Shown in pieces: positions 53,760-54,711 of a stretch of DNA of 64,000 nucleotides; the stretch's first letter is position 1; every line of letters begins with the position of its first letter. The stretch lies in the NCBI GenBank assembly GCA_964016885.1, contig OZ024743.1, positions 97,836,001-97,900,000 on the forward strand, read 5' to 3'. The position numbers and the translations under genes were made by a program. The notes under the pieces were generated by a model. That model ran no database searches and was not told where the DNA came from. It worked only from the letters and a program-made list of their open reading frames with translations. Source of the stretch: Eledone cirrhosa (Eukaryota).

Positions 53760-53760
<1 letters not shown>

Positions 53761-54060
53761 TGCTCTGTAATAGCGATGTTTATATGAATGTATATATAGT
53801 ATATTTGATAATATACTGTATGTTTAATTAAAACAATTTTGAAGATTATTTGCTATGATTTTCAAAGTAATGAGCATGTCACTTACTTATTCTCGGCAAA
53901 AACAGAGGGGAGTAATAAGCAGTCCTGTTTCTCGCTCCTTGGCGGTTATCAAGACTACTTACCCCTCCGCTTCTGCCAAGAATTATAGAAGCTGCATTCT
54001 TATAGAATTCCAGTAATGTTTAAGATCTGATTAAACAGAGCGGTTGCCGGTCCAGCAAAA
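53760..54060 (-). mobile_element. Diverged inverted homologue of the 310-bp HHR unit
   Basis: Reverse complement aligns by eye with 54300-54590; decayed HHR at 53912-53958. Confidence 0.75.
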
Positions 54061-54401
54061 CATAGGTAATAGTATTGGCACTATCAACCTCAAAGCGATC
54101 ATACATCTTTATATTGCAAGAGTCGGTGCAAACGGCTGGGAAAACCTGCAGTCGGGACTTTGATGAAGTATATTTTTTGTCTATTGTTTCCTCCTATTTT
54201 TAATTTTATTTTATTATAAACATACAGAATATTTTCGAATATTCTATGTCTATATTCACATATATATCGCTATTTCAGAGCATTTATTCCAATTTCTAAT
54301 TTCTGCCGGACCGGCAACCGCTCTTTCAAACCAGTTCCTGTACACAGCTAAGTATTCTATAAGTCTCTAGCTGTGTCATTCTCGATAAAAGCACTGGATA
54401 T

Positions 54402-54444
54402 GTAGTCCTGATGATTTCTAACAAGAATGAAACGCGTAGATTAC
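54402..54444 (+). ncRNA. Type I hammerhead ribozyme
   Basis: GTAGTC-CTGATGA-TTTCT(AACA)AGAAT-GAAAC GC GTA-GATTAC; outer 16-bp stem 54378-54393/54451-54466. Confidence 0.9.
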
Positions 54445-54711
54445 TTCCCTTGCTTTTATCGAGAATCTAATTGTAATACGTGACGTATTCTATTCTATAG
54501 CGATTAGGTCTTCAAAATGTTTATTATAAACATACAGAATATTTTCGAATATTCTATGTCTATATTCACATATATATCGCTATTTCAGAGCATTTATTCC
54601 AATTTCTAATTTCTGCCGGACCGGCAACCGCTCTTTCAAACCAGTTCCTGTACACAGCTAAGTATTCTATAAGTCTCTAGCTGTGTCATTCTCGATAAAA
54701 GCACTGGATAT

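What the first reader, a model, noticed from the sequence alone, without database searches (positions are those of the whole stretch)
53760..54466. Head-to-head, opposite-polarity hammerhead homologue with a compensatory stem
Seen: 53760-54060 is an inverted, much-diverged, circularly permuted copy of the 310-bp unit. Its minus-strand outer stem ATTCTTGGCAGAAGCGGAGGGG/CCCCTCTGTTTTTGCCGAGAAT pairs over 22 bp using G-U wobbles that work only on the minus strand, whereas the plus copy uses CGATAAAAGC/GCTTTTATCG. Stems II and III differ entirely and the core is decayed (TTGATAA). Inference: selection acted on RNA structure. Either related families insert next to each other, or this is one composite ambisense element with ribozymes of both polarities, reminiscent of viroid-like RNAs.
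Basis: partly seen in the sequence, partly recalled or inferred. Interest (0 to 1): 0.75.

Follow-up and report, generated by a model that had tools for sequence, protein, structure and literature searches.

The report
Three hammerhead retroelements stacked in microsatellite
Three different small repeats, each carrying a predicted self-cutting RNA (hammerhead) on one strand only, sit fused together in one TA microsatellite, likely pasted in at different times by Penelope-type jumping-gene enzymes, so this is most likely a pile-up of a known kind of genomic parasite rather than one two-sided viroid-like element.

Summary
The inverted homologue and its 22-bp minus-strand stem are real. The composite reading is not supported. 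The locus holds three separately dispersed repeat families: B (minus, 318-nt unit), C (the 'spacer', which is the 3' half of a third hammerhead family) and A (plus, 2.2 identical 310-nt units). The B|C junction was not seen elsewhere. No unit has a hammerhead on its antisense strand. TTGATAA is not decay: it is family B's normal U3-A8 core (28 of 30 copies), covarying with C3-G8 in related subfamilies and already published. This copy is predicted dead for another reason, a lesion at the cleavage site. Head-to-head layout is the families' ordinary Penelope-type footprint (49 of 60 A loci), but both arms normally carry the same variant (42 of 43). Divergences (C 17%, B 8%, A 0%) suggest sequential insertion. 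A single two-template B|C insertion is not excluded (about 15%). This scan already reported A-like and B-like families elsewhere in this genome.

The parts
53721..53755 (.). Left (TA)n tract, the target at the 3' end of the B copy
   Evidence: sequence
53756..54078 (-). Family B retrozyme copy: one 318-nt unit plus 5 nt, ending at the 'tail'-type end; 26 differences from the family majority
53889..53983 (-). B hammerhead domain: 22-bp G-U-rich outer stem, helix I, U3-A8 core at 53952-53946, GAAA at 53931-53928, helix III CAG-GA-CUG; cleavage site changed at 53919-53917, predicted inactive
54078..54082 (.). Direct 5'-to-5' junction of B and C with no TA between (0-3 nt filler or 1-nt overlap); found only here
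54082..54209 (+). 5'-truncated fragment of family C, a third type I hammerhead repeat (U3-A8 core, 64-nt helix II region, palindromic helix III CUGCAG). It keeps only the 3' half of the ribozyme (about 54140-54158) and stops at C's usual 3' end
54210..54887 (+). Family A array, 2.19 identical 310-nt units, one-armed, ending at the primary end (unit base 58); its 5' end is fused to C's 3' end
54378..54466 (+). First A hammerhead: C3-G8 core at 54408-54414, helix III CGCG, predicted cut after 54438
   Evidence: HH9 model, E 0.09, below gathering score
54688..54776 (+). Second A hammerhead, predicted cut after 54748; the two cuts would release a 310-nt monomer
54888..55060 (.). Right (TA)n/(TG)n tract at the 3' end of the A array
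   Evidence: sequence

Best explanation
Three separate non-coding hammerhead repeat families (C, B, A) lie fused in one TA microsatellite, likely inserted one after another (C oldest, then B, then A) by Penelope-like reverse transcriptase/endonuclease proteins. Each family unit carries one type I hammerhead in its sense strand (shown by sequence). Tandem transcripts would be cut to unit-length RNA, probably through paired hammerheads that join their short self-complementary helix III, and may be circularised (inferred from the known family, untested here). A Penelope protein would nick TA-rich DNA and copy the RNA from one of two fixed internal start points, which gives the fixed 'primary' and 'tail' ends seen in the copies (ends shown, enzyme inferred). 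Most insertions copy one RNA from both DNA ends and give head-to-head arrays; here each family left only one arm. B and A share an ancestor, so the inverted likeness is homology between subfamilies, not a designed ambisense pair.
For: Independent dispersal: exact motif counts are A 4,236, B 31 and C 144. No foreign family is fused at the 5' end in 48 other B loci, 54 other C loci or 60 A loci. The B|C junction pattern gave 7 hits: this locus, 4 inspected hits in an unrelated repeat, and 2 not inspected. Families share TA tracts elsewhere: 3 of 48 B loci (2 clear, 1 short stub) and 1 of 54 C loci have a clan neighbour within about 60 nt, all tail-to-tail. Ages differ: A 0 differences between units; B 26 of 319 against a 6.0% mean; C 22 of 131 against a 5.2% mean; Fisher p 0.011 for B against C. 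Penelope footprint: 49 of 60 primary-ended A loci have an inverted arm, and all 45 with a readable end stop at unit base 78-92, none at 58; this matches the published inverted copy plus one-sided tail. Both arms carry the same variant in 42 of 43 loci against 24% expected; the exception pooled two insertions. One-armed tail-ended B copies exist (at least 7 of 29). Intact RT + GIY-YIG reading frames exist in the genome.
Against: The geometry is unusual. B and C meet 5'-to-5' with no TA between, B has a tail end and C a primary end, which is the polarity of a single two-armed insertion. A's 5' end also leaves at most 2 nt of TA, whereas most of the 11 one-armed A loci keep a microsatellite on that side. 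All 4 neighbour pairs found elsewhere were tail-to-tail. C's divergence is measured against sampled copies only, so an unsampled subfamily could make it look older. No autonomous Penelope partner sharing A/B/C ends was found in 281 sequences. Cleavage and circular RNA were not tested.
Confidence: 0.78

Rival explanations
1. B(-)|C(+) is one old two-armed insertion in which the two ends of the cut DNA were primed on two different parasite RNAs (B from its tail start, C from its primary start) and joined head to head; A arrived later at C's 3' end.
For: Direct 5'-5' fusion without TA and the tail/primary polarity match intra-family two-armed loci. C's 5' break (unit base about 345) is a natural truncation point, seen within 3 nt in 3 of 54 other C loci. 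Foreign filler between arms does occur (272 nt in L096; about 100 nt in L104).
Against: B and C differ about twofold in divergence. Arms share a template in 42 of 43 A loci. No cross-family arm was seen in 49 two-armed A loci or in the B and C samples. B and C share no detectable sequence. One-armed B copies are common.
Confidence: 0.15
2. A young single event: the enzyme copying A jumped onto transcripts of old C and B copies and wrote the whole block at once.
For: C stops exactly at its primary start point next to A's 5' end with no TA tract; B supplies a tail end and A a primary end.
Against: It needs near-identical source copies. The best other B matches are 89%, the fragment's private deletion occurs once in the genome, and no sampled C copy is closer than about 83%.
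Confidence: 0.04
3. One composite ambisense element with ribozymes of both polarities that replicates or moves as a unit, like a viroid-like RNA.
For: Two related hammerhead folds face away from each other about 400 nt apart.
Against: The junction was found only here; no antisense hammerhead in any unit; this B copy has lost its cleavage site; the three parts differ in age.
Confidence: 0.02

Closest known systems
Metazoan non-LTR retrozymes (Cervera and de la Pena 2020, PMC7229834, passages read; Li, Clavereau and Pollet 2026, 10.64898/2026.07.22.740005, parts 1-3 of 5 read)
   Same: Short low-GC non-coding units of about 300 nt in tandem, one type I hammerhead per unit, weak palindromic helix III, a U-U mismatch at the base of helix II in A (as in axolotl HHR_Amex2), proposed Penelope origin.
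   Different: The word 'inverted' does not occur in the 2020 main text, whereas two-armed arrays are the rule here. Families B and C use the U3-A8 core. C has a much larger helix II region and a longer unit. Three families are fused at one site.
EN+ Penelope-like element insertions (Craig et al. 2021, PMC8557442; Arkhipova et al. 2013, PMC3846280; Frangieh et al. 2024, PMC11167929; passages read)
   Same: Partial tandems, 5' truncation, an inverted 5'-truncated copy head to head, a tail on one end only, (TA)n or AT-rich targets, and two internal start points for reverse transcription.
   Different: No reading frame; the A tail is 26-31 nt against the 30-40 nt described; the mobilising family was not identified.
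Schistosoma Penelope (Cercyon) hammerheads (Cervera and de la Pena 2014, PMC4209133, parts 1-2 of 4 read)
   Same: That paper reports the U3-A8 covariant core, hammerhead pairs 100-700 bp apart on opposite strands, and palindromic helix III suited to dimers.
   Different: Those are minimal hammerheads in Penelope terminal repeats. These are fuller motifs with a long outer stem in stand-alone units, and the opposite-strand pair here comes from two different subfamilies.
Ambisense viroid-like circular RNAs (recalled; search listings only)
   Same: Self-cleaving motif on a small, highly paired, possibly circular RNA.
   Different: They carry ribozymes in both polarities of one molecule; A, B and C each carry one in a single polarity.

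Membership tests
Type I hammerhead ribozyme | Core boxes with the 3-8 pair, A15.1-U16.1 and an NUH site, helix I open | tested here: met
   A: 557 of 560 cores read CUGA-N-GA, varying only at position 7. B majority and C majority parse as type I with U3-A8. Pair 3-8 covaries.
Type I hammerhead ribozyme | Intact core in this window's minus-strand copy | tested here: not met
   U16.1, C17 and position 1.1 are changed at 53919-53917; only 1 of 30 B copies lacks U16.1. The C fragment lacks the first core box.
Type I hammerhead ribozyme | Match to an Rfam hammerhead model at gathering score | tested here: not met
   A scores 19.2 bits against HH9 (gathering 52, E 0.09); B and C gave no hammerhead match at E 10.
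Type I hammerhead ribozyme | Self-cleavage in vitro | not testable with these tools
   needs bench work
Metazoan non-LTR retrozyme | Non-coding 150-450 bp low-GC unit in dispersed tandem copies, one type I hammerhead per unit | tested here: met
   A 310 nt in arrays of up to about 19 units in the first 100 matches; B 318 nt with tandem copies; C unit is somewhat longer.
Metazoan non-LTR retrozyme | Expressed as linear and circular unit-length RNA | not testable with these tools
   No RNA run was available to lay (see Tried and rejected).
Penelope-mobilised non-autonomous element | Inverted 5' copy, one-sided tail, TA-rich target | tested here: met
   49 of 60 A loci two-armed; 45 of 45 readable inverted arms end at unit base 78-92; 9 of 9 two-armed loci picked by the core motif have one end of each kind; B and C show the same.
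Penelope-mobilised non-autonomous element | Sequence shared with the terminal repeat of an autonomous Penelope element | tested here: inconclusive
   Penelope frames found in L166, L093/L281 and the window have unrelated ends; only 1.16 Mb was examined.
Ambisense viroid-like RNA | Ribozymes in both polarities of one recurring unit | tested here: not met
   No antisense hammerhead in circularised A, B or C; junction found only here.

The most novel reading that the evidence does not exclude
B(-)|C(+) is a fossil of one Penelope enzyme dimer priming the two ends of a DNA break on two different ribozyme RNAs and fusing them head to head. That would be direct genomic evidence that each arm of the Penelope inverted structure is primed separately, and a route by which opposite-polarity ribozyme pairs, like those of ambisense viroid-like RNAs, could be assembled from one-sided retrozymes. 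Searches listed no paper whose title or abstract start describes such a two-family insertion.
Probability: 0.15. Interest if true: 0.65.

Novelty: new member of a known kind. Interest (0 to 1): 0.3.

Why it matters
As it stands it is a tidy example of known biology: retrozyme families that leave Penelope footprints and reuse the same microsatellite targets. Its modest value is as natural mutagenesis. Within one clan the hammerhead switches between C3-G8 and U3-A8 cores and each subfamily has its own self-complementary helix III, which supports selection on ribozyme function and gives ready constructs to test dimer specificity. If the B|C junction were one two-template event, it would show how the unexplained inverted Penelope structure is built and how two-polarity ribozyme elements could arise.

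Tried and rejected
Rfam over the whole window gave only microsatellite noise in the 150 rows shown; the local scan gave a weak HH9 match for A only. The repeat finder was swamped by microsatellites. A DNA search with the A unit returned nothing because its words are too common, which is no evidence; motif patterns were used instead. Sequencing runs: no RNA holder listed. Contigs of four runs of unrecorded kind were laid: no listed piece spans the stretch or bridges B|C or C|A, which proves nothing. Three of them hold a single 340-nt contig identical to unit A at depth 10-15; I treat this as uninformative (possibly trace DNA). My first pair count had helices I-III misplaced by one column and was replaced. 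Six of 36 B rows from one tandem-duplicated locus were dropped before the core counts. The de-duplication reduced 59 B loci to 48 and 59 C loci to 54; two of the 48 are still the same duplicated locus. The six other hits of the junction pattern looked at first like a C subfamily; the four inspected are an unrelated repeat. A search for an autonomous partner among fetched loci failed. A literature search for activity data on U3-A8 cores listed only the 2014 paper with that term. Supplements of the cited papers were not read and may list further retrozyme families or opposite-strand pairs.

Full report
Setting. The window lies on contig C4 of a 3.0-Gb, microsatellite-rich genome. I did not determine the organism; earlier notes of this scan call it octopus-like, which I did not test.

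Observation. The plus array 54210-54887 has period 310 and is identical over 368 nt. The stretch 53761-54060 matches it in inverse at 68% over 306 nt (E 8e-17). The minus-strand hairpin 53983-53889 folds at -55.0 kcal/mol (z -9.0) and its complement at -32.9 (z -3.8); the plus unit folds alike on both strands. The 22-bp stem with four G-U pairs is as described.

Three families, not two halves. A search with the whole block returned copies of the minus part only, at up to 89% identity and with no spacer attached among the 40 candidates scored. The spacer alone matched a third repeat at 76-80%, with neither A nor B in register beside it in 29 loci. I call the families A (plus), B (minus, 318-nt unit) and C. 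Exact motif counts are 4,236 for A, 31 for B and 144 for C. C is itself a type I hammerhead repeat with a U3-A8 core, a 64-nt helix II region and helix III CUGCAG; the window keeps only its 3' half. After de-duplication, 0 of 48 other B loci and 0 of 54 other C loci have a different family fused at the 5' end, nor do 60 A loci. A pattern across the B|C junction gave 7 hits: this locus, 4 inspected hits in an unrelated repeat and 2 not inspected. The families do share TA tracts elsewhere: 3 of 48 B loci (two clear, one short stub) and 1 of 54 C loci have a clan neighbour within about 60 nt, always tail-to-tail.

Of 30 B copies, 28 have U3 and A8 and 21 have GUC followed by G at the cut site. 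Helix I is the same in A and in the B majority, and B's helix III is CAG-GA-CUG. Further subfamilies turned up with either C3-G8 or U3-A8 and their own mostly self-complementary helix III. Over 16 copies pair 3-8 is C-G in 6, U-A in 9 and unpaired in 1, and 17 of 28 pairs change on both sides against 11.0 +/- 1.5 in shuffles; relatedness inflates this, and I drew the structure from these sequences. In A, 557 of 560 cores vary only at position 7, the free position. The U3-A8 variant and opposite-strand hammerhead pairs 100-700 bp apart are both reported for Schistosoma Penelope elements (PMC4209133, parts 1-2 of 4). The window's B copy is the only one of 30 without U16.1: three adjacent changes at 53919-53917 remove the cut site and extend helix I. 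Together with a compensated pair at 53967/53905, this looks like hairpin-templated DNA repair in this copy (inference), so part of the perfect stem need not reflect RNA selection. No hammerhead was found on the antisense strand of circularised A, B or C.

Head-to-head is the normal footprint. Of 60 A loci chosen by their primary end (unit base 58), 49 have an inverted arm; the 45 with a readable end all stop at unit base 78-92 (32 at 84), none at 58. In loci chosen by the core motif, 9 of 9 two-armed ones have one end of each kind. B and C behave alike. This matches the inverted 5' copy, one-sided tail and (TA)n bias of Penelope-like elements (PMC8557442 and PMC3846280, passages) and the two internal start sites, with both strands extended, shown in vitro (PMC11167929, passages). 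Both arms carry the same ribozyme variant in 42 of 43 loci against 24% expected if independent, and the exception was two insertions pooled in one fetch. So the two arms normally come from one template. Intact RT + GIY-YIG frames are present (L166, 784 aa), but none examined shares ends with A, B or C. A Penelope origin of animal retrozymes is proposed in 10.64898/2026.07.22.740005 (parts 1-3 of 5).

How this locus was built. The A units are identical. B differs from its majority at 26 of 319 sites (others average 6.0%) and C at 22 of 131 (others 5.2%) (Fisher p 0.011). C's deletion occurs once in the genome, and no sampled C copy is closer than about 83%. The simplest history is an old one-armed C, then B into the TA tract on its left and A into the tract on its right. 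One-armed copies are common (11 of 60 for A; at least 7 of 29 tail-ended for B). Against this, B and C meet 5'-to-5' with no TA left, with tail and primary ends, exactly like a two-armed insertion, and A also leaves almost no TA. I therefore keep 15% for one old two-template B|C event and 4% for a young multi-template event.

Shown against inferred. Shown: three families, unique junction among the loci sampled, core covariation, end pattern, shared variants between arms, divergence ranks. Inferred: cleavage, dimer action, circular RNA, Penelope enzyme, order of insertion.

Verdict. New members of a known kind (non-LTR retrozymes with Penelope footprints). This scan has already described 310-nt and 318-nt U3-A8 families on other pieces of this genome. 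Interest 0.3.

Noticed in passing
window 12288-13694: 5'-truncated Penelope-like element: GIY-YIG frame at 12405-13154 (Pfam E 3.5e-05) with a 140-nt inverted arm (12288-12427 / 13555-13694) and a minimal-hammerhead-like motif near 13540; a local example of the same head-to-head footprint.
   Followed up: partly
window about 11880-11920: Another minimal hammerhead-like motif (CUGACGA core, palindromic CUAG helix III) from an unrelated repeat.
   Followed up: no
L093 / L281 (G000:C1, about 30.796-30.800 Mb): A tail-ended minus-strand A arm faces a 5'-truncated Penelope RT-endonuclease copy that has its own terminal repeat, across unresolved sequence. It may be a second cross-family head-to-head candidate or a clue to A's partner, but cannot be resolved here.
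   Followed up: partly
L166:808-3159: Open 784-aa Penelope-type RT + GIY-YIG frame flanked by 660-nt inverted repeats, 1.8 kb from an A insertion; its ends are unrelated to A.
   Followed up: partly
L096:2099-2370 and L104:1344-1443: Foreign filler of 272 nt and about 100 nt lies between the two arms of head-to-head insertions, suggesting template jumps at the junction.
   Followed up: no
L106, L109, L112-L114, L116-L118, L123, L124, L137: At least four more A/B-clan subfamilies that share the tail region but differ in core type (C3-G8 or U3-A8) and helix III, a possible self-recognition code for dimer cleavage.
   Followed up: partly
window 21238-22387 and 53386-53550: Long inverted repeats (568-nt arms at 97%; a shorter decayed pair seen), probably other fold-back or miniature elements.
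   Followed up: no
window 54210-54560 (runs X4, X5, X6): Three runs with different organism and study codes each hold one 340-nt contig identical to unit A at depth 10-15; two show the unit joined end to start. Run kind is not on record, so trace DNA and tandem collapse cannot be told from a circle.
   Followed up: no
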